NCBI RefSeq assembly: GCF_030409605.1
Contig: NZ_JAUFQG010000004.1
Location: 540,430-604,429 of the forward strand
DNA length: 64,000 nucleotides
Direction of reading: 5' to 3'
From: Simiduia curdlanivorans
Lineage (GTDB): Bacteria > Pseudomonadota > Gammaproteobacteria > Pseudomonadales > Cellvibrionaceae
Made by a program: the position numbers and the translations under genes. Of the stretch, positions 11,541 to 64,000 are shown one piece after another (position 1 is the stretch's first letter; every line of letters starts with the position of its first letter). Under the pieces are notes generated by a model, which was given only the letters and a program-made list of their open reading frames with translations, did no database searches and was not told the origin of the DNA.

Positions 11541-11630
11541 GTTACAGCTAACAGTTTACAGTTTACAGCTCACAGGAAAAGCAGGAGCAAAAAACACAAG
11601 CTCTTCGCTGTTAACTGTTAACTGTTAACT
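11541..11630. repeat. intergenic heptamer tandem-repeat hairpin element: (ACAGYTN)x5 - spacer - (CTGTTAA)x3
   Basis: ggttACAGCTAACAGTTTACAGTTTACAGCTCACAG, then a 32-nt spacer containing gcaaaaaacacaag, then CTGTTAACTGTTAACTGTTAACT. The arms are imperfect reverse complements. It lies between convergent gene ends. Confidence 0.6.
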
Positions 11631-12788: not shown

Positions 12789-12945
12789 GCTGCAAGCTAC
12801 AGGCTGCAAGAGGTTAGGAAGATTACAGCTGACAGTTCACAGTTCACAGAAAGGGCAAAGGCAAAAATCACAGGCGCCAAGAATCAGCTACCTAGCTTTT
12901 AGCTGTCAACTGCCAACTGCCAACTGCCAACTGCCAACTGCTCAC
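12789..12945. repeat. intergenic heptamer tandem-repeat hairpin element: (GCTRCAR)x3/(ACAGYTN)x4 - spacer - (CAACTGC)x5
   Basis: gctgcaagctacaggctgcaag...gattACAGCTGACAGTTCACAGTTCACAG, then a spacer (gggcaaaggcaaaaatcacagg) similar to the spacer of element 11541..11630, then gtCAACTGCCAACTGCCAACTGCCAACTGCCAACTGCtcac. Confidence 0.6.
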
Positions 12946-36836: not shown

Positions 36837-38306
36837 ATGCTTAGACATATCCCGCGCCAGCGCTTAGCGGCAGCATTGGCACTGACTATATGCGCACCTT
36901 CAACCCTTGCCGCTAACGGATTCATGCAAACAGGCCCAGCCGGTACCTACGGCAAGGCCAGCAGCGGGCAAACCGCAATATCCAATAGCGGCAACCCGGC
37001 AGCCATTGGTTTTGATCGCCAACGCATGAACCAGGAGAACACAGTGCTGGGTGCGCTCTACCTCGGCGGAGAACTGGAATACGGCAATATCCAGGAGCTG
37101 TTCGACATCTACGACGAACTGGCCAATGCCTTTAACGACGACGGCAGCAGCAGTGGCGGCGGTAGCGGTGGCGGAAGCACAAGTGGCGGTGGGCTAGACT
37201 TTGGCGACATAGACATCAATGACCCCGATATCGCAGCCATCATCGATCGAGTTGAAGGCCAAGCCAACCACATAGGCGCCTTGCTGGCACTGGTGGCAAC
37301 TGAAGGTTATGCCAACGCCGACGCCGCCGTAGACCTACCGTTGATTTTTAACACAGACATTTTTGGTGGCACCCTAGGTTTTAATTTCAGCTACAGCGGC
37401 TCGGCCTCCGCCGTTGGCTTTATGGAGGATATCGACTTCGATGCCGCCACCGCACAAACCGAATTAGAGGCCGCCTTCAATTTACAACCCGGCGACCCAG
37501 CCACTACCTACGATTTGAGCGGCGGCATTTCTCTGACCATCGACCCCAATACCAACAGCGTTAGTGGTACCTTTGACAACGACAGCTTGCTGGCCACCAG
37601 AGCCGCACAGGCAACCCAATTTGGCGTCAGCTATAGCTACCCAATTGTGTTCGAAAATAGCAGCACCTTATATCTAGGCGCCACCGCAAAATATGTGCGC
37701 ATGGGCTTAGCACGGGTAGCAACACGCATCGGCGACATAACAGACTCGGAAGATTTATTTGACGACATTCGCGATGCGAAGTTCGTCAACACCAACCGAT
37801 TCGGCATGGACTTCGGCGCACTTTGGGTTGCCAAGCACGTCTCCTTGGGCACCAGCATTACCGATGCCTTTGAACCCAGCTATGAATTTAATGCCATCGA
37901 CACCAGCAACTACAACAACCCAACCCTCGGCGCGCTCATTGATGAGTTACAAACCTATGAGCAAGAGCGGCAAATCACTGTCGAGGGCAGCCTCTATACG
38001 GAAGACCGCGCCTGGGCGTTAAGTACGAGTTACGAAACTGCCGCCATTAAAGATCCACTTGGTGCCGAACATCAGTGGTTTAGCATTAGCGGCGGCTGGA
38101 ACTCCAATAGCTTTTGGGTTCCATCAGTGCGGCTTGGTTACCATATGAACCAAGTAGGCAGCGAAATAAATATGTACAAGTTAGGTTTCACACTATTTCG
38201 CTATGTGGATTTAGATCTCGGTATGTCATCCGAAAAGGTTGAAATAGATGGCACTTCTTTACCCCAGGGTGCGAGTGCGAATCTCGGTTTTCACTACACC
38301 TTTTAA
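36837..38306 (+). CDS. outer-membrane beta-barrel protein (TraF-like/long-chain OMP family) with Gly/Ser-rich insert
   Basis: 489 aa with a signal peptide (ALALTICAPSTLAANG) and alternating amphipathic beta-strands. It ends in an aromatic terminal residue, ...GFHYTF. The insert is GSSSGGGSGGGSTSGGG. Confidence 0.7.
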   Translation: MLRHIPRQRLAAALALTICAPSTLAANGFMQTGPAGTYGKASSGQTAISNSGNPAAIGFDRQRMNQENTVLGALYLGGELEYGNIQELFDIYDELANAFNDDGSSSGGGSGGGSTSGGGLDFGDIDINDPDIAAIIDRVEGQANHIGALLALVATEGYANADAAVDLPLIFNTDIFGGTLGFNFSYSGSASAVGFMEDIDFDAATAQTELEAAFNLQPGDPATTYDLSGGISLTIDPNTNSVSGTFDNDSLLATRAAQATQFGVSYSYPIVFENSSTLYLGATAKYVRMGLARVATRIGDITDSEDLFDDIRDAKFVNTNRFGMDFGALWVAKHVSLGTSITDAFEPSYEFNAIDTSNYNNPTLGALIDELQTYEQERQITVEGSLYTEDRAWALSTSYETAAIKDPLGAEHQWFSISGGWNSNSFWVPSVRLGYHMNQVGSEINMYKLGFTLFRYVDLDLGMSSEKVEIDGTSLPQGASANLGFHYTF

Positions 38307-38326
38307 TCGCTGAGAAACCGAAATAG

Positions 38327-38646
38327 AAAAGGCTGCAATTGCCACTGCTGTCCCATAGTTATATTGCGGGAGAGTTTGGTGTCCGTACTAGCGACCGTCA
38401 CCCGCATGGGTTGATATCGCAATTAGGCAAAGCATGCTTTGCAGCGATAGCAACGCCCACAGTGTGTCATTGTGGGCCGGTCCCAAAGGGCGGGTGTTGA
38501 GACTACATGGTTGTATTCACGTCGTGTCGCTAGTGCGGGTACCAAACTCATGTCCAAATATACGCCCAGATGTCGCATCTATTGTGAGGCTTATAGACTA
38601 ACGATGATCGCGTCGTTTTTGTGAGACAGTGGTGTGCAATTGCAGC
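38327..38646. repeat. 320-bp MITE-like or structured-RNA element with nested inverted repeats
   Basis: Terminal inverted repeats GAAAAGGCTGCAATTGCCACTG / CAGTGGTGTGCAATTGCAGCCTTTTTTC. Inner inverted repeats GAGTTTGGTGTCCGTACTAGCGAC / GTCGCTAGTGCGGGTACCAAACTC. Central perfect palindrome GCAAAGCATGCTTTGC. It lies between convergent gene ends. Confidence 0.5.
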
Positions 38647-38664
38647 CTTTTTTCACCTTGAGAT

Positions 38665-39987
38665 TTACTTTTTTAACAGCTCCATCAATGCGATAACCGT
38701 AGCTTCTACACCCTTCGTAACCGAAGGTTCTGGCGCAATTTTAAATAGAGGGCTGTGATGGCTCGGCACAGGTTCACCACCGGCTTTCTCGCGCTCGAAA
38801 TCTGCTTTAGGTGTTCCGCCGATAGCAAAATAGACACTGGGTATATAAGGGTCGGTTGTGAAGAACGGGAAGTCTTCTGCCCCCATTCCCAGTCGACGAT
38901 AGTTTTCATCGAATGCGTCGGCGCCCATTTTTTCACGCCATACAGCCTTTAAACGCTGGGTCATGGGTATATCGTTTACCGTTGGCGGCGTTGGCTCATC
39001 GGAGATAATTACCTTTGGCAAATTATCCTCCGGTAAACCGGCAGCGCGACCAATATTAACCGCAACGCGCTCAATGGCAGCCATCAGGTATTCACGCGTT
39101 TCCCAACTATCGTTGCGCACGGTTACTTGCAAGCGCGCCTCATCGGAAATTATATTGTGCTTAGTGCCCGCATGAAATGAACCCACCGTAATTACCGCCG
39201 GTTCTTTCGGCGCGATTTCACGGCTCACAATCGTTTGCAACGCCAACACAATTTGCGCACCTATGACCACTGGGTCTTTACCACGATGAGGCGAGGCACC
39301 GTGGGCGCCAATACCGGGCACAACGATATCGATACTATCAACACCCGAATAAGGCGAACCCTCAACCGCAACCAACTTGCCTGCTTCAATTTCCGAACTC
39401 ACATGAAACGCCATAGCGTAATCGGGTTGACCAAAGCGCTTCCAAATACCATCGTCCATCATGCCTTTCGCGCCGCCCACTCGCTCTTCAGCGGGCTGGC
39501 CGATCAACATTAAGGTGCCAGACCACTCACTTTTGCGCTGCGCCATCTGGCGCGCGGTACCCACCAGACTGGTGATATGCACATCGTGGCCACAGGCGTG
39601 CATCACGTTCACCACATTGCCGTCCCAATCTTTTTGGGTCGCTTTTGAAGCGTAAGGTAAACCGGATTTTTCCTCCACCGGCAGGCCGTCCATATCGGCG
39701 CGCATCATCACCAGCGGGCCCTTGCCGTTTTTCATGATGGCCACAACACCGGTTTTACCGACACCTTCAGTAACTTCAAAACCCGCGGCACGCAGCTCCT
39801 TAGCAAGGCGCTTGGCGGTTTGCGTTTCTAGGTGGGACAGCTCAGGGTTTTTATGAAAGTGCTCAAATAGCGGAGCCAAATGTTTTTTATAATCTTTCTC
39901 AACATCTTGCGATAAATCACCGGCAAACGCGCCTGCGCTAGCGAGCAAGACTGCCAGGGCCAAGGAATGCTTAATCATAGTCTTCAT
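38665..39987 (-). CDS. secreted M20D-family amidohydrolase/peptidase (hippuricase/aminoacylase-like)
   Basis: 440 aa with a signal peptide and metal-binding motifs MHACGHDVH and GQPAEE, typical of the M20D family. Confidence 0.85.
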   Translation of the reverse strand: MKTMIKHSLALAVLLASAGAFAGDLSQDVEKDYKKHLAPLFEHFHKNPELSHLETQTAKRLAKELRAAGFEVTEGVGKTGVVAIMKNGKGPLVMMRADMDGLPVEEKSGLPYASKATQKDWDGNVVNVMHACGHDVHITSLVGTARQMAQRKSEWSGTLMLIGQPAEERVGGAKGMMDDGIWKRFGQPDYAMAFHVSSEIEAGKLVAVEGSPYSGVDSIDIVVPGIGAHGASPHRGKDPVVIGAQIVLALQTIVSREIAPKEPAVITVGSFHAGTKHNIISDEARLQVTVRNDSWETREYLMAAIERVAVNIGRAAGLPEDNLPKVIISDEPTPPTVNDIPMTQRLKAVWREKMGADAFDENYRRLGMGAEDFPFFTTDPYIPSVYFAIGGTPKADFEREKAGGEPVPSHHSPLFKIAPEPSVTKGVEATVIALMELLKK

Positions 39988-49968: not shown

Positions 49969-52900
49969 TTAGTGTTGATTCTCACCACTCAACTCGCGAA
50001 TATTGGCCAACAGGCCATCCTCTTGATAGGGTTTACCCATATATTTATTGACCCCCAAACTAAAGGCGCGCTCGCGGTGTTTATCACCAGTGCGCGAGGT
50101 GATCATAATGATGGGAATGTGCTTCAAGCGACTGGTCGAGCGAATATTTTTCGCAACTTCGAAGCCATCCATGCGCGGCATTTCAATATCCAGCAACATC
50201 ACATCGGGGATAACATCTTGTAAAATCCTCAACGCATCGGCGCCATCTTTTGCGGTAATCACGTTATAGCCTTCGCGCTCCAGGAACCGGCTGGTTACTT
50301 TACGCACCGTTACCGAGTCATCCACCACCATGACTAGGCGCGCAGAATCCTCCTCGTCTACCGACGATGGTGCGTTTAACAACTGCGCCTGTGTAAGACT
50401 AAGCGCCGCCTCCTTACGAATCATGGCGTGTAGATCCAAAATCACCACAACACTACCATCACCCATAACCGTGGCACCGGATAAACCTTGCACGGTGCTG
50501 AATTGGTGGCCCAAGGTCTTTACCACAATTTCCCGGCTACCCATTAGCGTATCAACTTGCAAGGCCACCGCGTGTTCAGAGCTGCGCACCAAGATTACCG
50601 GTAGCGGCAATGCATGGCCTTCTAACTTAGGCCTTAGATCTTTATTAAGCATATTACCCAAATAGCGCACGCGATAATTTTCGCCGGCGTATTCAAAGCG
50701 CGCATCTGCGTCTTGATAATAATGCTCCAACTCGAATGGGCTGACGCGCACAATACCTTCAATAGTATTCAACGGGATAGCGTAGCGGTCGTCGCCGATT
50801 AACACCATCAAGGCGCGGTTTACCGATACCGTAAACGGCAAGCGAATAACGAACTCTGTGCCCTCGCCATAGCGCGAGTCGATATACATCGCACCGCCTA
50901 GCTGTTTAATCTCCGAGTGCACCACGTCCATGCCGACGCCGCGACCGGAAATTTGTGTGACCTTCTCGGCGGTAGTAAAACCCGCAGACAAAATAAACTG
51001 CATGATTTCCTGATCGCTTAACTTTGCATCCGCCGCCATTAAACCGCGCTCGATGGCCTTAGCTTTTACCCGATCAAGATTAATGCCCCGACCATCGTCA
51101 GCTAACCGCAGTACCACGTCGCCACCTTCGCGACCCAAGCTTAAAACAATCCGTCCTTCGCTATCTTTGCCTGCTGCCTGACGGCCAGCGGCATCTTCAA
51201 TCCCGTGATCCACTGCATTGCGCAGCATATGCTCTAAAGGCGCAACCATGCGCTCCAACACCGAGCGATCCATTTCGCCTTCGGCGTTATCCAGTTCGAA
51301 ACTTACTTGTTTATCTAGCTCCGTGGCGACCTGGCGTACAATACGGCGCAGCCTTGGCACCAAGCGTGAAAATGGCACCATGCGCGAGCGCATGAGGCCC
51401 TCTTGCAAATCGGTATTAATGCGCGACTGCTGCAATAAAAGCGTTTCGGCGTCACGGGTTTTATCGGTCAGCGTGCTCTTCAAATCCAGCAAGTCCGACG
51501 CCGACTCGATCAAAGACTTTGAGAGCTGTTGCAACTGCGAGTAGCGATCCATTTCTAGCGGATCGAAATCTTCCGTATCTTGCAATTGTTCTTGACGGAA
51601 AATAATTTGCGCTTCGGTTTCAATATCTAAGCGGCGTAACTGTTCCTGCAAACGCGAAATGGTGGATTCCATTTCGTCAATGGCAACGCCAATCTCACTA
51701 ACCTGCTCTTCCATTCGACCGCGCGAGATAGATGTTTCACCGGCGAGGTTTACGAGGTCTTCCAGCAGATCCGCGGATATTTTTACCACTTCCTGAGGTT
51801 GATTGCGCTTAACGGCTAGCTGCGCTGCAGCCCTGCTCTGCTTGCTTGCCTCTTTCGACTTAGTGCCGGCCACCGAGGGCGCCGGTGCGCGAGGATTAAA
51901 CGGGATAACATCCGCAGAGGTATAAGATTTATGCGGCACGACTTGCTGGCTAGGTTGTTGTGCCGGTTTTGGCTCAACCCTATCTGCAACAACTTGTGGC
52001 GGCTCCGCATCTGCGGCTTGATCGTCTTCATCATTAGCTGAGGGCTGTGTCGCAGCCGCGGCGCTCTCTTCCGCCGCGCCCAGTGACGACAAATCGGTTT
52101 TTGCCGATTTATCGATGGCACGCATAGCTTCGGCTAGGCCTTCGGGCTCATAGCTTTGTACCGCGACCCTGACCTTCTCAGTGCCATTTAACAAGAGATC
52201 TTGATACTGATGCATTACCTCAAACAGCTGTGCGTCAACTTCAACACCGTTGTTTTCTCTGCCTATTAAGTAGGTTTCGAACTCATGAGAAATATCACCC
52301 AAGCCTGTGAGACCAGCCAGACGAGCACCACCTTTTAAGGTGTGCAGGATTCGCTTCAGCTCATCTAAATAGGTACTGCTGGCCCAATCTTCAGACCATC
52401 CATTAATAGCGTGATCCGTTTCTTCGAGTAGTTCATCCGCTTCTTCCAGAAAAATTTCAAAAATTTCCGGATCAATTTCTTCTTCGGCAATATCCGAGTC
52501 GTGCTCTTCAATAGTTACTGAAACACTGGGTGAATCTGCTTCTGCTTCTGCTTCTGCTTCTGCTTCTGCTTCTGCTTCCAGTATATTTAACCCGGTATCT
52601 TCTGTTTCAATAACTTGGTCATAGCTTTCAATAATAAACGGGGTAGGATCGTCTTCGGCTTCCAGCTCGACATCCTGAACATCAGGCAGGGAAAGCTCTA
52701 ATTCCTCGGGTTCGATAACAGAGTCGTTCGAAGAATAATCTAAGCTGATGTCTGCTTCGCTTTCTGGCTCGGCTTCCAGCGCTTCCGAAGGCAGCGTAAA
52801 AACAATGTCTTCTTCCGATTCTTCCGGCAAAAGATCAGCGGGAATTTCACCCTCCAGCTCAATCGGTGCCAAGGAGACTAAAGACACCATAATATCATCG

Positions 52901-55900
52901 GAAACGGGGGCGATATTCTGACCGGCAGCTACCGCATCAACCATGTCCAACAAGGCATCGTGGCCGGTATGTAAAATGCCATACCCAACCTCATCAATCG
53001 TAACCTGACCAGCCGCTACACCTTCGTACACTTGCTTAAGCTGACCACTCAAGCCGCTCATCTGCACAAGGTTGGCGTGTTCGGCACCGCGCTCTAAATT
53101 TTCTAACTCGTGACACAGGGCCGCCATTTGTTCGGCGACAACACCCTCTTCCTGCCAGGCGCGAAGCATGTCATCGGCACCCAATAGAAGATTCATTTCC
53201 TCCGCCATAAAAATGCTAAGCAATTCAGGATCTACTTTTTTCTTACCCTGAATTTCGGCTTCTTGCTGGCGAATAAGCGGACCAACCGACAGCTCTTTTA
53301 GCTCGGCCACACGCGCAATAAACTGTTGCAAATGTGGAAACTCGACTTCCCTACCGGCGGAAATATTTTCCAGCGCGGCGCGGGTATAAGTAACGGCGTC
53401 GCCAATGAGCTGCAGAATGTCCTCATCGATATTGACTTGGTAAGAGCGCAATTCTTTTACGAAGCGCTCTAGCGGCGTCGCCATTTCAGCAATCGATGCT
53501 ACATCTGCCATATGCGCGCTACCCTTTAAGGTATGCAAGGCGCGCTGTAGGTTTTCGCTGGGCGGGGTATATAAAGGCGCCTGCTCTTGCATTTCGAGCA
53601 CGAAAGCTTCCACCTCTTCGAGGTGGGTGTTAGCTTCGGAACCAAATATTTCCCAAAGCATGGAGTCCGGCTCGTTATCGTCATCTTCGACAACGGGCGC
53701 TGGCGCACTTGGCTCGACCCCAGCCAACAACTCGGCGGGAATATTGCCCTTCGATAAACTCTCAGCCCACTCGCGATACTGAGTCGCTGCCACTTGGTCT
53801 GGCACCGGCTTTTTCTCTTGGAAAGCATTGATCATGCCGGGAAAAAGGGCAACCACTCGCTCAATTAGATCCAGGTGAATGGTGTTCGGCTCGATGCTGC
53901 CATCGATAATGCGATTCAGCATATTTTCGATGGACCACGCCAGCTCACCGATGTCCATGGCCTTAACCATGCGGCCCGAACCCTTCAGTGTATGGAATGC
54001 CCGCCTAAATTCTGTGAGCGCTTCCTGATCATTGAAATCTTCCTTCCAGCGCGGGAAGAATTCATTGATTGTTTCAATAACCTCTTCTGCTTCTTCGATA
54101 AAGATTTCACGAATTTCTTCGTCGACTTCGTCTTCATCATCGACAACGGTTTCGGCGACGGGGGTAACGGTGGCCTCAACTGGATCATGCGGCTCACTAA
54201 CAGGCTCAAAGGCGGAATCTTCCAGCTCAATCGATTCAGCGTCGGTCTGTTCAGCGTCATATTGTGGAGCTGTTTTGAGATCAGCACCTGCGTCGTCTGT
54301 TTCGTTATCTTCAAGCGCCTGGCCTAATTCAACGCTAGGGGCTTCCGTGCTTGCCGAGGGCTTTGCCGCTTCCGGCACAGGCACATTCATATCCACATCT
54401 TCGACGCCGGCCATCTTTTTCAAGACGCTCTCTGCATTGCTCGATGCTGGGGTAGCCTCAGTTTTTAATTTGCTGGCCGCAACGGCGTAACCTAAGGCCT
54501 CAACACTCTCTTCCGCAACACTGAGCAGAAGGTCATCATCTTCCTCTAGGTCGCCACCGAGGCGCTCTAAATAATATTCAACACTGGTAATTGCATCGGC
54601 CAAAATATCTAAGGTTGACCATTCGGGTGGCGTGTTTGCACCCAGCAATTTTTCTTCGACAAAACGCGCGCAAGCACCAATAATTCGAGCCGGCCTCGGT
54701 AGCGGCACCATGTCTAAACCGCCGCGAATCTCGCGCAGCATGTTGGGTACGTTACCTAGGTGCGACTGACCCCACTGAGACGCGATATATTCGATGACTG
54801 CATCTTTGGCCTGCTCTAAACCGTTGCGACACTCACGCAACACCTGCTCTTGCGCTTCGTTCAAATTGATATCGCGCAAGGGCACTTGACCGGTGGCGGT
54901 ACCTGCATTTCGCGCTAGGTTTTGCAGCCCGTTTTCAACATCAATAATTTCGCCGGCAACCCCCATTAACACCTCGTGGGTTAGGGTATCGGGCTGCTGA
55001 ATAGCGCGATCGAGCACCGATGTCTGCGCTAAGATTTTTTGCCTGAGCGAACCTAAGCCCAACACCGCAAGGGTGTCGGCTACGCGCTTCAACACCGGCA
55101 GGGCGTCTTGAACATAGGCCGTCGAGTTTTCACCGGTTAGGCACATATCCATGGCGTGCTTGATGATATCGAGCTCGTCGCCAATAGCGGCCACAACACT
55201 GCGCATGGCATCGCCATCAGGGCCACTCAGCAAATCTTCGGCGTCCGGGTCTTCCGATTTTTCAGTTGGCAGCGCTTCGTCTAAACGATACTTTGCTTTG
55301 ATATTGCTCAGCTGGGGCGTGCGCGATTCAGCGCGGGCAATGTAATAGAGTAAATTCTTTAGCAGTTCGTGTGGCGAACCAGCCTTTAATGCCTTCAAGC
55401 CATGTACTGAAAGCACTTTTATTTCGCGATCGAGTTGGCGCAGTAGATTTTTAACGGAGACGCTGGCTTCAATTGAGTCGTTTTGCAAACCTTCAATCAG
55501 CGCGAGCGAAATTTCCCACAGCGGTTGACGCGCAGTACCCTGCGTTAGCTTGTGAAGTTTGCTAAAAACTTTTTGTAGGTAGGCTAAACTTTCATCGGCT
55601 TTGACGCCGCGAATAACACCCGCGGCGGCCATTTGATACATCTGCCGCAGCTTAGTGACCATGACGACAAATTGTTTGGCGTCTTCTGCAAGCGGAATGC
55701 GCTGGCCGGTAATTTTCTTTGCCGCGCTCATGTCGGGCGTAAACAGCTGGGTTTCGGTGAGCAAACTTTCGCCACGCACGGCACGTAAATCATTCAATAA
55801 TGGCAGCACCATTGCGGGCTGATCTTTACGGCTGTTTTTTATGTGTTCTAGATAGAGCGGCAACTGCAAAATGGCCCGCATCAGGACTTCTTGCCCCTCG

Positions 55901-56157
55901 GACTCATTTTTAACCAAGCCATTCATTAATGCTTGCGCCAGCTGCTCCATCTCTTCAGCCATCAGCGCTGCGCCATAGAACTCCACCATTTTAAGGGAGC
56001 CGTGCACTTGATGGATGTGAGTTAAGCAAAACCGAATACGGGTAGCGTCTTTCGAGTTTTCAACATAGGCCTCGAGAGCTTGGCGCGCCTGCTTAAGCGA
56101 CTCGCCAATTTCTCCTATCACCCAATCCAGGGCTGCAAAGTTACGGTTGTCTCCCAA
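49969..56157 (-). CDS. chpA: multi-Hpt hybrid histidine kinase ChpA (CheA-like) with C-terminal CheY receiver
   Basis: 2062 aa: repeated Hpt modules (HTLKGSA x several), dimerisation and HATPase domains (GRGVGMDVV), a CheW-like domain and a terminal REC (VDDSVTVRK...LLDIEMPRMDG). Confidence 0.9.
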   Translation of the reverse strand: MGDNRNFAALDWVIGEIGESLKQARQALEAYVENSKDATRIRFCLTHIHQVHGSLKMVEFYGAALMAEEMEQLAQALMNGLVKNESEGQEVLMRAILQLPLYLEHIKNSRKDQPAMVLPLLNDLRAVRGESLLTETQLFTPDMSAAKKITGQRIPLAEDAKQFVVMVTKLRQMYQMAAAGVIRGVKADESLAYLQKVFSKLHKLTQGTARQPLWEISLALIEGLQNDSIEASVSVKNLLRQLDREIKVLSVHGLKALKAGSPHELLKNLLYYIARAESRTPQLSNIKAKYRLDEALPTEKSEDPDAEDLLSGPDGDAMRSVVAAIGDELDIIKHAMDMCLTGENSTAYVQDALPVLKRVADTLAVLGLGSLRQKILAQTSVLDRAIQQPDTLTHEVLMGVAGEIIDVENGLQNLARNAGTATGQVPLRDINLNEAQEQVLRECRNGLEQAKDAVIEYIASQWGQSHLGNVPNMLREIRGGLDMVPLPRPARIIGACARFVEEKLLGANTPPEWSTLDILADAITSVEYYLERLGGDLEEDDDLLLSVAEESVEALGYAVAASKLKTEATPASSNAESVLKKMAGVEDVDMNVPVPEAAKPSASTEAPSVELGQALEDNETDDAGADLKTAPQYDAEQTDAESIELEDSAFEPVSEPHDPVEATVTPVAETVVDDEDEVDEEIREIFIEEAEEVIETINEFFPRWKEDFNDQEALTEFRRAFHTLKGSGRMVKAMDIGELAWSIENMLNRIIDGSIEPNTIHLDLIERVVALFPGMINAFQEKKPVPDQVAATQYREWAESLSKGNIPAELLAGVEPSAPAPVVEDDDNEPDSMLWEIFGSEANTHLEEVEAFVLEMQEQAPLYTPPSENLQRALHTLKGSAHMADVASIAEMATPLERFVKELRSYQVNIDEDILQLIGDAVTYTRAALENISAGREVEFPHLQQFIARVAELKELSVGPLIRQQEAEIQGKKKVDPELLSIFMAEEMNLLLGADDMLRAWQEEGVVAEQMAALCHELENLERGAEHANLVQMSGLSGQLKQVYEGVAAGQVTIDEVGYGILHTGHDALLDMVDAVAAGQNIAPVSDDIMVSLVSLAPIELEGEIPADLLPEESEEDIVFTLPSEALEAEPESEADISLDYSSNDSVIEPEELELSLPDVQDVELEAEDDPTPFIIESYDQVIETEDTGLNILEAEAEAEAEAEAEADSPSVSVTIEEHDSDIAEEEIDPEIFEIFLEEADELLEETDHAINGWSEDWASSTYLDELKRILHTLKGGARLAGLTGLGDISHEFETYLIGRENNGVEVDAQLFEVMHQYQDLLLNGTEKVRVAVQSYEPEGLAEAMRAIDKSAKTDLSSLGAAEESAAAATQPSANDEDDQAADAEPPQVVADRVEPKPAQQPSQQVVPHKSYTSADVIPFNPRAPAPSVAGTKSKEASKQSRAAAQLAVKRNQPQEVVKISADLLEDLVNLAGETSISRGRMEEQVSEIGVAIDEMESTISRLQEQLRRLDIETEAQIIFRQEQLQDTEDFDPLEMDRYSQLQQLSKSLIESASDLLDLKSTLTDKTRDAETLLLQQSRINTDLQEGLMRSRMVPFSRLVPRLRRIVRQVATELDKQVSFELDNAEGEMDRSVLERMVAPLEHMLRNAVDHGIEDAAGRQAAGKDSEGRIVLSLGREGGDVVLRLADDGRGINLDRVKAKAIERGLMAADAKLSDQEIMQFILSAGFTTAEKVTQISGRGVGMDVVHSEIKQLGGAMYIDSRYGEGTEFVIRLPFTVSVNRALMVLIGDDRYAIPLNTIEGIVRVSPFELEHYYQDADARFEYAGENYRVRYLGNMLNKDLRPKLEGHALPLPVILVRSSEHAVALQVDTLMGSREIVVKTLGHQFSTVQGLSGATVMGDGSVVVILDLHAMIRKEAALSLTQAQLLNAPSSVDEEDSARLVMVVDDSVTVRKVTSRFLEREGYNVITAKDGADALRILQDVIPDVMLLDIEMPRMDGFEVAKNIRSTSRLKHIPIIMITSRTGDKHRERAFSLGVNKYMGKPYQEDGLLANIRELSGENQH
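52536..52579. repeat. (GCTTCT)7 hexamer microsatellite inside chpA encoding an (AE)n tract
   Basis: ctgcttctgcttctgcttctgcttctgcttctgcttctgcttcc on the plus strand corresponds to ILEAEAEAEAEAEAEAD in ChpA. Confidence 0.8.
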
Positions 56158-63537: not shown

Positions 63538-63962
63538 CGCAAACCATCATCGCCTTCGACTTCGGCACCCAAAATATTGGCGTCGCCTACGGCCAAACCC
63601 TGACCAACACTGCGCGGGAATTACAGGCACTAAAAGCCAAAGACGGCATACCTAACTGGTTAGACATAGAGCGACTACTGCAGCAGTGGCAACCGTCACT
63701 ACTGCTCGTTGGCTTGCCATTAAACATGGACGGCAGCGAAAGCGAGCTAGCCACTCGGGCGCGAAAGTTTGGCAACCGGCTACATGGCCGCTTTGGCACC
63801 CAAGTGGCGCTATGGGATGAACGGCTTAGCACGCGCGAAGCTAAAGCAGAGGCGCAAGAGCGCGGCCACAAAGGTCACTATAAAAGCGATCCGATAGATT
63901 CCATTGCCGCGCGGTTAATTTTAGAAAGTTGGTTGAATGAGCATGTGGCAGCTAACAGCTAA
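63534..63962 (+). CDS. ruvX: putative pre-16S rRNA nuclease / Holliday-junction-resolvase-like YqgF (RuvX)
   Basis: GTG start overlapping the yqgE TGA (GTGA). N-terminus TIIAFDFGTQNIGVAYGQ matches the RuvX/YqgF start. ~142 aa. Confidence 0.8.
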   Translation: MTQTIIAFDFGTQNIGVAYGQTLTNTARELQALKAKDGIPNWLDIERLLQQWQPSLLLVGLPLNMDGSESELATRARKFGNRLHGRFGTQVALWDERLSTREAKAEAQERGHKGHYKSDPIDSIAARLILESWLNEHVAANS

Positions 63963-64000
63963 CAGCTAACAGCTAACAGCTAACAGCTAACAGCTAACAG
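63949..64000. repeat. (AACAGCT)n heptamer tandem array, at least 7 units, running off the window end
   Basis: gctAACAGCTAACAGCTAACAGCT... begins inside the last codons and stop of ruvX and continues to position 64000. Confidence 0.7.

What the first reader, a model, noticed from the sequence alone, without database searches (positions are those of the whole stretch)
38327..38646. 320-bp element with nested inverted repeats (MITE-like or structured RNA) between convergent OMP and M20 peptidase genes
A non-coding stretch is bounded by 22-28 bp terminal inverted repeats (GAAAAGGCTGCAATTGCCACTG ... CAGTGGTGTGCAATTGCAGCCTTTTTTC). It contains a second ~24-bp inverted repeat pair (GAGTTTGGTGTCCGTACTAGCGAC / GTCGCTAGTGCGGGTACCAAACTC). 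At its centre is a perfect 16-bp palindrome, GCAAAGCATGCTTTGC. There is no ORF. This architecture fits a miniature inverted-repeat transposable element or a long stem-loop sRNA. It is too elaborate for a simple pair of terminators.
Basis: seen in the sequence. Interest (0 to 1): 0.6.

Follow-up and report, generated by a model that had tools for sequence, protein, structure and literature searches.

The report
Miniature IS4-type transposon splitting a terminator
The 320-bp "nested inverted repeat" is a 292-bp transposase-less relative of a known insertion sequence (IS4 family, ISAbe18-like) that landed in the loop of the terminator hairpin shared by two convergent genes, so it is an ordinary mobile-DNA insertion and there is no evidence that it is a new RNA gene.

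Summary
The repeats are real and far from chance (RNA fold z = -9.6), but the outer "terminal repeat" is a composite. Its outer 12-16 bp are the two halves of the host's own bidirectional terminator, AAAAGGCTGC-AATT-GCAGCCTTTTTT. Close relatives carry that terminator intact at the same place, in spacers of only 52-170 bp.

The inserted element is 38343-38634 (292 bp), flanked by a perfect 9-bp duplication, TGCAATTGC. Its first 18 bp (CACTGCTGTCCCATAGTT) are identical to the left end of a widespread 1.24-1.28-kb IS4-family insertion sequence, and ISAbe18 has the same end. Its last 18 bp match a right end of that group at 15/18.

Full-length copies of that group make 9-10-bp duplications. They insert into the loops of A-tract/stem/loop/stem/T-tract hairpins, exactly as seen here.

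The interior (about 255 bp) has no relative anywhere I could search, no Rfam match, no promoter-like site and no credible ORF.

Verdict: a MITE-like, non-autonomous IS4-family element in a terminator loop. Copy number and an autonomous partner could not be tested, because the source genome is not in the searchable collections. An RNA role for the cargo is not excluded but is unsupported. Interest is low to moderate.

The parts
36837..38306 (+). Upstream flanking gene: TraF_2-type outer-membrane protein (489 aa), which converges on the element
   Evidence: ORF; Pfam PF13729 at E 1.3e-39; same gene order in relatives
38327..38342 (.). Left half of the ancestral bidirectional terminator: A-tract 38327-38330, stem GGCTGC 38331-38336, then loop and start of the 3' arm. 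It contains target-duplication copy 1, TGCAATTGC (38334-38342).
   Evidence: Removing 38343-38643 restores AAAAGGCTGCAATTGCAGCCTTTTTT. Relatives have AAAGGCTGCAACAGCAGCCTTTTT (L006, orthologous spacer) and AAATGGCTGCAAAAGCAGCCATTTTT (L005, downstream of the same peptidase gene).
38343..38634 (+). The inserted non-autonomous IS4-family element (292 bp). The + strand corresponds to the transposase-sense orientation of the parent IS.
   Evidence: Bounded by the 9-bp direct repeat. Absent from seven relatives. Its ends match IS ends.
38343..38360 (+). Left terminal inverted repeat, CACTGCTGTCCCATAGTT
   Evidence: Exact match to at least 120 metagenomic loci, where it is the end of 1.24-1.28-kb IS4-family elements, and to the left end of ISAbe18 on an Acinetobacter lwoffii plasmid
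38372..38395 (+). Left arm of the inner 24-bp inverted repeat. Together with 38354-38370 it forms a long imperfect arm pairing with 38553-38562 and 38619-38623.
38396..38525 (+). Multi-branched core. It holds hairpin 38410-38454, tipped by the perfect palindrome 38427-38442, and hairpin 38455-38477. It has no detectable relative.
   Evidence: Helices. No match in Rfam, plasmids or phages, the genome, metagenome and viral scans, or the fetched IS-bearing loci.
38526..38549 (+). Right arm of the inner 24-bp inverted repeat
38600..38620 (+). Small hairpin AACGATG-ATCG-CGTCGTT whose 3' arm runs into a T5 run (38616-38620), just inside the right end. It is a possible weak + strand terminator. In position it is analogous to the hairpin next to the right end of full-length IS copies, but it is not similar in sequence.
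   Evidence: Helix; comparison with IS right ends; not called by the simple terminator scan
38617..38634 (-). Right terminal inverted repeat, read on the - strand as CACCACTGTCTCACAAAA
   Evidence: 15/18 identical to the right end of the full-length copy in L097 (CACTACTGTCCCACAAAT) and 14/18 to that of L075. It differs at positions 4 and 11, which are invariant in the full copies examined.
38635..38653 (.). Target-duplication copy 2, TGCAATTGC (38635-38643), followed by the right half of the ancestral terminator: AGCC, then T6 at 38648-38653
38665..39987 (-). Downstream flanking gene: M20-family amidohydrolase, which converges on the element
   Evidence: ORF; Pfam PF01546 and PF07687; best homologues 86-93% identical, in Simiduia-like bacteria

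Best explanation
The element is a 292-bp non-autonomous (MITE-like) derivative of an ISAbe18-like insertion sequence of the IS4 family. It sits in the loop of the bidirectional intrinsic terminator shared by the outer-membrane-protein gene and the M20 amidohydrolase gene.

Shown by the sequences:
- its two ends are the left-type and right-type ends of that IS group;
- it is flanked by a perfect 9-bp duplication centred on the hairpin loop;
- removing it restores the terminator that relatives still carry;
- the IS group as a whole inserts in such hairpins and makes 9-10-bp duplications.

Inferred from what is established for IS4-family DDE transposases (IS10, IS50, IS231A):
- a transposase supplied in trans bound the ends;
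- it excised the element by cut-and-paste and joined it to cuts staggered by 9 bp across the apex of the terminator palindrome;
- gap repair then produced the duplication.

Consequence (inference): the two terminator halves now lie about 300 bp apart. Because the element folds back on itself, an RNA would re-form a closing helix of 28 pairs (18 + 10, with one bulged base), followed by U6 on the + strand. Termination may therefore be partly preserved. A small hairpin plus T5 at 38600-38620 may stop outer-membrane-protein transcripts earlier.

The unrelated, highly structured interior is most simply passenger DNA with no demonstrated function.
For: - Empty sites. The M20/outer-membrane-protein gene pair is kept in six relatives, with spacers of 52-163 bp against 358 bp here. 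L006 has AAAGGCTGCAACAGCAGCCTTTTT in that spacer. L005 has AAATGGCTGCAAAAGCAGCCATTTTT downstream of the same peptidase gene. Deleting 38343-38643 gives AAAAGGCTGCAATTGCAGCCTTTTTT.
- Left end. Many hits lie at contig ends. Several contigs carry two inverted copies 1.24-1.28 kb apart, enclosing a DUF4372 + DDE_Tnp_1 transposase. That transposase matches NCBIfam NF033592, IS4 family.
- Known relative. The transposase is 60% identical to that of ISAbe18. A plasmid copy of ISAbe18 has the same left end and a 9-bp duplication inside the hairpin AAAAATGGGA...TCCCATTTTT.
- Right end. It matches genuine IS right ends at 15/18.
- Duplications. The nine full-length metagenomic copies with a perfect duplication have 9 or 10 bp. 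The window has a perfect 9 bp.
- Target preference. 74 of 124 unique flanks have an A4+ run at -26 to -9, against 10.7% in controls. Eight of those nine full-length copies, and the ISAbe18 plasmid copy, reconstruct to A-tract/stem/loop/stem/T-tract hairpins.
- No coding capacity. tblastn finds no transposase in the window. The three small ORFs searched have no credible homologues.
- Recurrence. Two other short elements with the same ends, L082 (292 bp) and L019 (167 bp), have unrelated but equally structured interiors.
- Literature. ISAbe18 is 1,269 bp, belongs to the IS4 family and actively transposes (PMC8552602). The size, the CA------T ends and the 8-10-bp repeats fit the IS4Sa subgroup (PMC2266710 Table 1).
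Against: - Only one copy is seen. No second copy and no transposase lie in the 64-kb window.
- The source genome is not in the searchable genome collection, so multi-copy status and a partner IS are untested.
- The right end differs from all full-length copies at two otherwise invariant positions, so this copy may no longer be mobile.
- The interior is unrelated to any IS copy, so its origin is unexplained.
- Eight of nine transition mismatches in the long-range arms are G.U on the + strand (my count; two-sided binomial p about 0.04). That hints at constraint on a single-stranded + strand molecule, which a purely selfish DNA reading does not predict.
Confidence: 0.85

Rival explanations
1. The cargo is a functional structured RNA: an sRNA, or a 3'-UTR element of the outer-membrane-protein mRNA. 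On this reading the IS ends merely delivered it, or are incidental.
For: - The + strand fold is very stable (-156.8 kcal/mol, z -9.6) and 19 kcal/mol better than the - strand.
- There are 13 G.U pairs on the + strand against 5 on the - strand. Eight of nine arm mismatches are G.U on the + strand (my count).
- There is no coding potential.
- A hairpin plus T5 lies near the 3' end.
- The + strand is read in the same direction as the upstream gene.
Against: - No Rfam family matches, even at E up to 10.
- No sigma-70-like promoter is found on either strand.
- No homologue was found anywhere, so covariation cannot be shown.
- Unrelated short elements with the same ends are just as structured (z -9.05 and -7.4), so strong folding is a generic property of these elements.
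- The strand bias is only marginally significant.
Confidence: 0.1
2. The element is a one-off remnant: a full-length IS inserted here and later lost its interior in situ. On this reading it never moved as a short unit and is not a member of a multi-copy MITE family.
For: Only one copy is seen in the window. The right end is degraded at two conserved positions.
Against: The roughly 255-bp interior shares nothing with the full-length IS copies in the fetched loci, so a simple internal deletion cannot produce it. The arms just inside the ends are inverted copies of each other, which is not the case in the parent IS.
Confidence: 0.1
3. The region is an ancestral, unusually elaborate spacer or pair of terminators, and not an insertion.
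For: The outermost arms plus the T-run look like a terminator.
Against: All seven relatives, up to 93% protein identity, have only a short simple terminator downstream of the peptidase gene. The extra DNA is bounded by IS ends and a 9-bp duplication.
Confidence: 0.02

Closest known systems
ISAbe18 and related IS4-family insertion sequences (features fit the IS4Sa subgroup)
   Same: The left end is identical over 18 bp and the right end is of the same type (CAC..CTGTC.CACAA). Both make a 9-bp target duplication and insert in the loop of an A-tract/stem/loop/stem/T-tract hairpin.
   Different: The window element is 292 bp against about 1,270 bp, has no transposase gene and has an unrelated interior. 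Its arms continue as inverted copies of each other for about 50 bp, whereas the IS ends match each other for only 13-18 bp.
MITEs, and IS231-derived mobile insertion cassettes (MIC231) of the IS4 family
   Same: IS ends flank non-transposase DNA that is presumably moved in trans. The element is small, has a target duplication, and folds as a long hairpin when transcribed.
   Different: MIC231 cassettes carry passenger genes, whereas this cargo is non-coding. Multi-copy status, which is part of the usual MITE definition, is not shown here. My knowledge of MIC231 comes from memory and from the mention in PMC2266710, not from a test made here.
IS1272 / TnSha1 (IS1182 family) targeting terminator hairpins
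   Same: Targets are chosen by hairpin or terminator structure, with little primary-sequence specificity (PMC4923244).
   Different: IS1272 cuts bluntly in the stem, deletes part of the hairpin and makes no duplication. Here the hairpin is kept whole, and 9-10 bp centred on the loop are duplicated.
IS231A target preference (GGG(N)5CCC flanked by A/T-rich bent DNA; Hallet et al. 1994, listed as reference 21 in PMC2266710)
   Same: It is also an IS4-family element preferring a short GC-rich palindrome between A/T tracts, with a duplication of about one helical turn.
   Different: It belongs to a different subgroup with different ends (CAT...) and makes 10-12-bp duplications. The details of the consensus are recalled from memory and were not checked here.
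Transcribed enterobacterial and neisserial MITEs (ERIC, Correia elements)
   Same: These are intergenic, often lie in 3' UTRs, and fold into long RNA hairpins that can alter mRNA stability or termination.
   Different: They come from different parent families, with different ends and different duplications. No effect on expression has been shown for the window element.

Membership tests
MITE / non-autonomous derivative of an IS4-family (ISAbe18-like) insertion sequence | Terminal inverted repeats matching those of an autonomous IS | tested here: met
   The left end matches IS left ends at 18/18, including that of ISAbe18. The right end matches the right end of the full-length copy in L097 at 15/18.
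MITE / non-autonomous derivative of an IS4-family (ISAbe18-like) insertion sequence | Flanking target-site duplication of the length made by the parent IS | tested here: met
   TGCAATTGC at 38334-38342 and 38635-38643, a perfect 9 bp. Full-length copies have 9 or 10 bp.
MITE / non-autonomous derivative of an IS4-family (ISAbe18-like) insertion sequence | Small size and no transposase gene | tested here: met
   The element is 292 bp and its longest ORF is 55 aa. The three ORFs searched have no credible homologues.
MITE / non-autonomous derivative of an IS4-family (ISAbe18-like) insertion sequence | Empty site in related genomes | tested here: met
   Seven relatives lack the element. Six keep the same gene pair with short spacers, and L006 and L005 carry the uninterrupted terminator.
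MITE / non-autonomous derivative of an IS4-family (ISAbe18-like) insertion sequence | Same target-site preference as the parent IS | tested here: met
   The IS group inserts in terminator-like hairpin loops, and the window site fits that profile.
MITE / non-autonomous derivative of an IS4-family (ISAbe18-like) insertion sequence | Several copies in the same genome | not testable with these tools
   The 64-kb window has no second copy. The source genome is not in genome contigs, and its exact proteins are not on record.
MITE / non-autonomous derivative of an IS4-family (ISAbe18-like) insertion sequence | An autonomous partner IS in the same genome to supply transposase | not testable with these tools
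   tblastn of the IS transposase against the window gives nothing better than E = 0.68. The rest of the genome is unavailable.
Known structured RNA family (Rfam) | Match to a curated covariance model | tested here: not met
   Nothing reaches a gathering score anywhere in the window. At E up to 10 in 37800-39200 the only hit is a chance SNORD25 match outside the element.
Independent small-RNA gene | Own promoter and terminator; structure conserved through compensatory changes | tested here: inconclusive
   The scan finds no promoter-like or terminator-like site. A weak hairpin plus T5 lies at 38600-38620. There are no homologues, so covariation cannot be assessed.
Intrinsic (bidirectional) terminator | Short GC-rich stem-loop between an A-tract and a T-tract, at the end of convergent genes | tested here: met
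   This holds for the outer arms only. The reconstructed site GGCTGC-AATT-GCAGCC lies between A4 and T6 and corresponds to the terminators of L005 and L006.
IS200/IS605-derived palindromic elements or REP elements | Subterminal hairpins, no terminal inverted repeats, no target duplication | tested here: not met
   The element has DDE-type terminal inverted repeats and a 9-bp duplication.

The most novel reading that the evidence does not exclude
The ISAbe18-like group may recognise intrinsic terminators by their structure, duplicating 9-10 bp centred on the loop. Its short derivatives, with three unrelated but equally structured cargoes seen here, would then be mobile cassettes whose self-folding RNA re-joins the split terminator halves or carries a functional structured RNA. 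On that reading the window element would be a working 3'-UTR or terminator module and not junk.
Probability: 0.1. Interest if true: 0.55.

Novelty: new member of a known kind. Interest (0 to 1): 0.3.

Why it matters
For this locus, the result explains an odd 320-bp structure as mobile DNA. It warns against annotating the region as an RNA gene on folding energy alone.

More generally, the metagenomic copies show that this IS4-family group keeps an almost invariant 18-bp end while its transposases diverge to about 60% identity. They also show that the group strongly prefers the loops of intrinsic terminators. Such landing sites spare coding sequence but split the signal that separates convergent genes.

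If the split terminator still works because the insert folds back on itself, that would be a neat case of a transposon minimising its own cost. It could be tested with a simple read-through reporter.

Tried and rejected
- Rfam, at gathering thresholds over the whole window and at E up to 10 around the element: nothing relevant. tRNA and tmRNA scan: none.
- blastn of the element against plasmid and phage collections: no match.
- Exact-pattern scans with interior blocks:
  - viral contigs, three blocks, no hit;
  - representative genomes, with the 18-mer CACCCGCATGGGTTGATA, only 7 chance hits in unrelated phyla that do not extend;
  - metagenomes, with a 22-mer from the inner stem, no hit.
- Using spurious small ORFs as a proxy index for other copies of the element: no homologue for the 55-aa and 53-aa + strand ORFs. 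The 51-aa - strand ORF gave only weak hits to very large proteins (736-5,795 aa), which I take to be noise.
- Type I toxin reading: rejected, because no hydrophobic small ORF is present.
- Nested second MITE bounded by the 24-bp inner repeat: rejected, because no direct repeat flanks it and the pairing simply continues outward.
- IS200/IS605, REP, integron attC, retron and IS110 bridge-RNA readings were considered early. They were dropped once the DDE-type ends and the 9-bp duplication were found.
- Similarity between this cargo and the cargoes of the two other short elements: none (alignment z about 0).
- About ten of the 18-mer hits have no partner end within 1.5 kb. I treated them as probable chance matches or other element types.
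- The energy of the mirrored + structure evaluated on the - strand was discarded as meaningless, because the evaluation does not penalise non-canonical pairs properly.

Full report
**The observation.**
- The outer pair is perfect for 16 bp (38327-38342 / 38636-38651) and continues as a 10-bp imperfect helix.
- The inner 24-bp pair lies at 38372-38395 / 38526-38549.
- The perfect 16-bp palindrome lies at 38427-38442.

As RNA, the + strand folds at -156.8 kcal/mol (z -9.6) and the - strand at -137.6 (z -9.3). None of 100 shuffles does as well on either strand. The palindrome is not central: it tips one side hairpin. ORFs of 50-55 aa exist. I searched three of the four, and none has a credible homologue.

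**Context and organism.** The element lies between a TraF_2-type outer-membrane-protein gene (36837-38306, +) and an M20 amidohydrolase gene (38665-39987, -). The amidohydrolase is 86-93% identical to proteins of Simiduia species and of uncultured relatives. The source is therefore probably a Simiduia-like gammaproteobacterium. Its exact proteins are not on record.

**It is an insertion.** I fetched the same locus from seven relatives.
- In the six that keep the M20/outer-membrane-protein pair, the spacer is only 52-163 bp, against 358 bp here. In the seventh (L005) the next called gene starts about 170 bp downstream of the peptidase gene.
- Where I read the sequence, the spacer holds one simple bidirectional terminator.
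- L006 (91% relative) has AAAGGCTGC-AACA-GCAGCCTTTTT. L005 (93%) has AAATGGCTGC-AAAA-GCAGCCATTTTT downstream of the same peptidase gene.

That is the same stem as the outer arms in the window. Deleting 38343-38643 from the window gives AAAAGGCTGC-AATT-GCAGCCTTTTTT, a textbook terminator on both strands.

**What was inserted.** The extra DNA is flanked by a perfect direct repeat, TGCAATTGC (38334-38342 and 38635-38643). This bounds a 292-bp element at 38343-38634.

Scans with interior blocks found nothing.
- Many matches sit at contig ends, as repeats do.
- Several contigs carry two inverted copies 1,240-1,276 bp apart.
- These enclose one gene for a protein of about 385 aa with DUF4372 and DDE_Tnp_1 domains. 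It matches the NCBIfam IS4-family transposase model at E about 1e-75.
- The protein is about 60% identical to the transposase of ISAbe18.
- A plasmid copy of ISAbe18 has the same 18-bp left end, the right end CATTGCTGTCCCACAATT, and a 9-bp duplication.

ISAbe18 is a known, active, 1,269-bp IS4-family element (PMC8552602). The size, the CA------T ends and the 8-10-bp repeats fit the IS4Sa subgroup in Table 1 of PMC2266710. That subgroup assignment is my inference.

The window's right end, read inward, is CACCACTGTCTCACAAAA. It matches the right end of the full-length copy in L097 at 15/18 and that of L075 at 14/18. It differs at positions 4 and 11, which are invariant in the full copies, so this copy may no longer be mobile.

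**Family behaviour matches the window.** The nine full-length metagenomic copies with a perfect duplication have 9 or 10 bp. When those target sites are reconstructed, eight of the nine are A-tract/GC stem/4-nt loop/stem/T-tract hairpins with the duplication centred on the loop. The ISAbe18 plasmid copy shows the same pattern. Over 124 unique flanks:
- 60% have an A4+ run at -26 to -9, against 10.7% at random positions in the same contigs;
- A reaches 75% at -16;
- the last 3 nt pair back across a short loop far more often than in controls.

The window site fits this profile exactly. Many full-length copies also carry a bidirectional terminator of their own just inside the right end.

**The interior.** The region 38361-38616 shares nothing with any IS copy or with any other fetched locus. 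There is no Rfam hit and no promoter-like site. The window holds no transposase.

Just inside the ends, the two arms are inverted copies of each other for about 50 bp. The right arm is interrupted by about 56 nt (38563-38618).

Two other short elements with the same ends turned up, L082 (also 292 bp) and L019 (167 bp). Their interiors are unrelated to this one (alignment z about 0) but just as structured (z -9.05 and -7.4). Strong folding therefore seems generic to short derivatives of this IS group, and is not evidence of an RNA gene.

One hint points the other way. By my count, eight of the nine transition mismatches in the long-range arms are G.U on the + strand, which is the transposase-sense orientation. 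The two-sided binomial p is about 0.04. This could reflect constraint on a single-stranded + strand molecule, mutation bias or chance.

**Mechanism.**
- Shown: the ends, the duplication, the empty site and the target preference.
- Inferred from the established cut-and-paste chemistry of IS4-family DDE transposases (PMC2266710): a transposase supplied in trans made 9-bp staggered cuts across the apex of the terminator palindrome and joined the element there.
- Consequence, also inferred: both convergent transcripts must now enter the element. The self-folding insert brings the old stem halves together into a helix of 28 pairs followed by U6, which may keep some termination. The hairpin plus T5 at 38600-38620 may stop + strand transcripts earlier.

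**Comparison with what is known.** This is a new member of a known kind, a non-autonomous derivative of an IS4-family element.
- Hairpin and terminator targeting is documented for IS1272/TnSha1. That element deletes part of the stem and makes no duplication (PMC4923244).
- From memory, IS231A prefers GGG(N)5CCC between A/T tracts. The paper is listed as reference 21 in PMC2266710.
- In the searches I ran I did not find a description of loop-centred terminator targeting for the ISAbe18 group. This is a limited literature check, not proof of novelty.

**Limits.** Copy number in the source genome and the presence of a partner IS could not be tested. The origin of the cargo is unexplained.

Noticed in passing
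window 11542-11575 with 11608-11630; 12826-12849 with 12903-12941; 63949-64000: Intergenic arrays of 7-bp tandem repeats with an ACAG/CTGT core: TTACAGC x4.9, CTGTTAA x3.3, CTGCCAA x5.6 and CAGCTAA x7.4. Two of the loci are inverted pairs of arrays 30-50 nt apart, so they would form long repeat-built hairpins. The last array runs off the end of the window. This looks like a separate repeat family specific to this genome.
   Followed up: partly
metagenome loci L015-L134, e.g. L038:1367-2638, L093:549-1821, L091:584-1859; plasmid locus L135:304-1572: The ISAbe18-like IS group keeps an almost invariant 18-bp end, although its transposases are only about 60% identical. It inserts preferentially in the loops of intrinsic-terminator hairpins and makes 9-10-bp duplications. 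Many members carry a bidirectional terminator of their own just inside the right end, which could replace the one they split.
   Followed up: partly
L082:634-925 and L019:889-1055: Two other transposase-less elements (292 and 167 bp) are bounded by the same IS ends. Their interiors are unrelated to the window element and to each other in sequence, but are likewise built of nested inverted repeats (z -9.05 and -7.4).
   Followed up: partly
window 52535-52578: A perfect hexamer repeat, TCTGCT x7.3, lies inside the 2,062-aa ORF on the - strand (49969-56157). It would encode a dipeptide repeat in a very large protein.
   Followed up: no
L007:4398-7310: In one relative (88% identical amidohydrolase) the TraF_2 outer-membrane-protein gene is present as two tandem copies. 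The HDOD-domain gene that follows the single copy in the window and in other relatives is not among the genes called after them.
   Followed up: no
L136:7401-7418 and L137:26-43 (IMG/VR contigs): The 18-bp IS end also occurs on two contigs classed as viral. In L136 no partner end was found within 1.5 kb, so that hit may be a chance match or a different element.
   Followed up: partly
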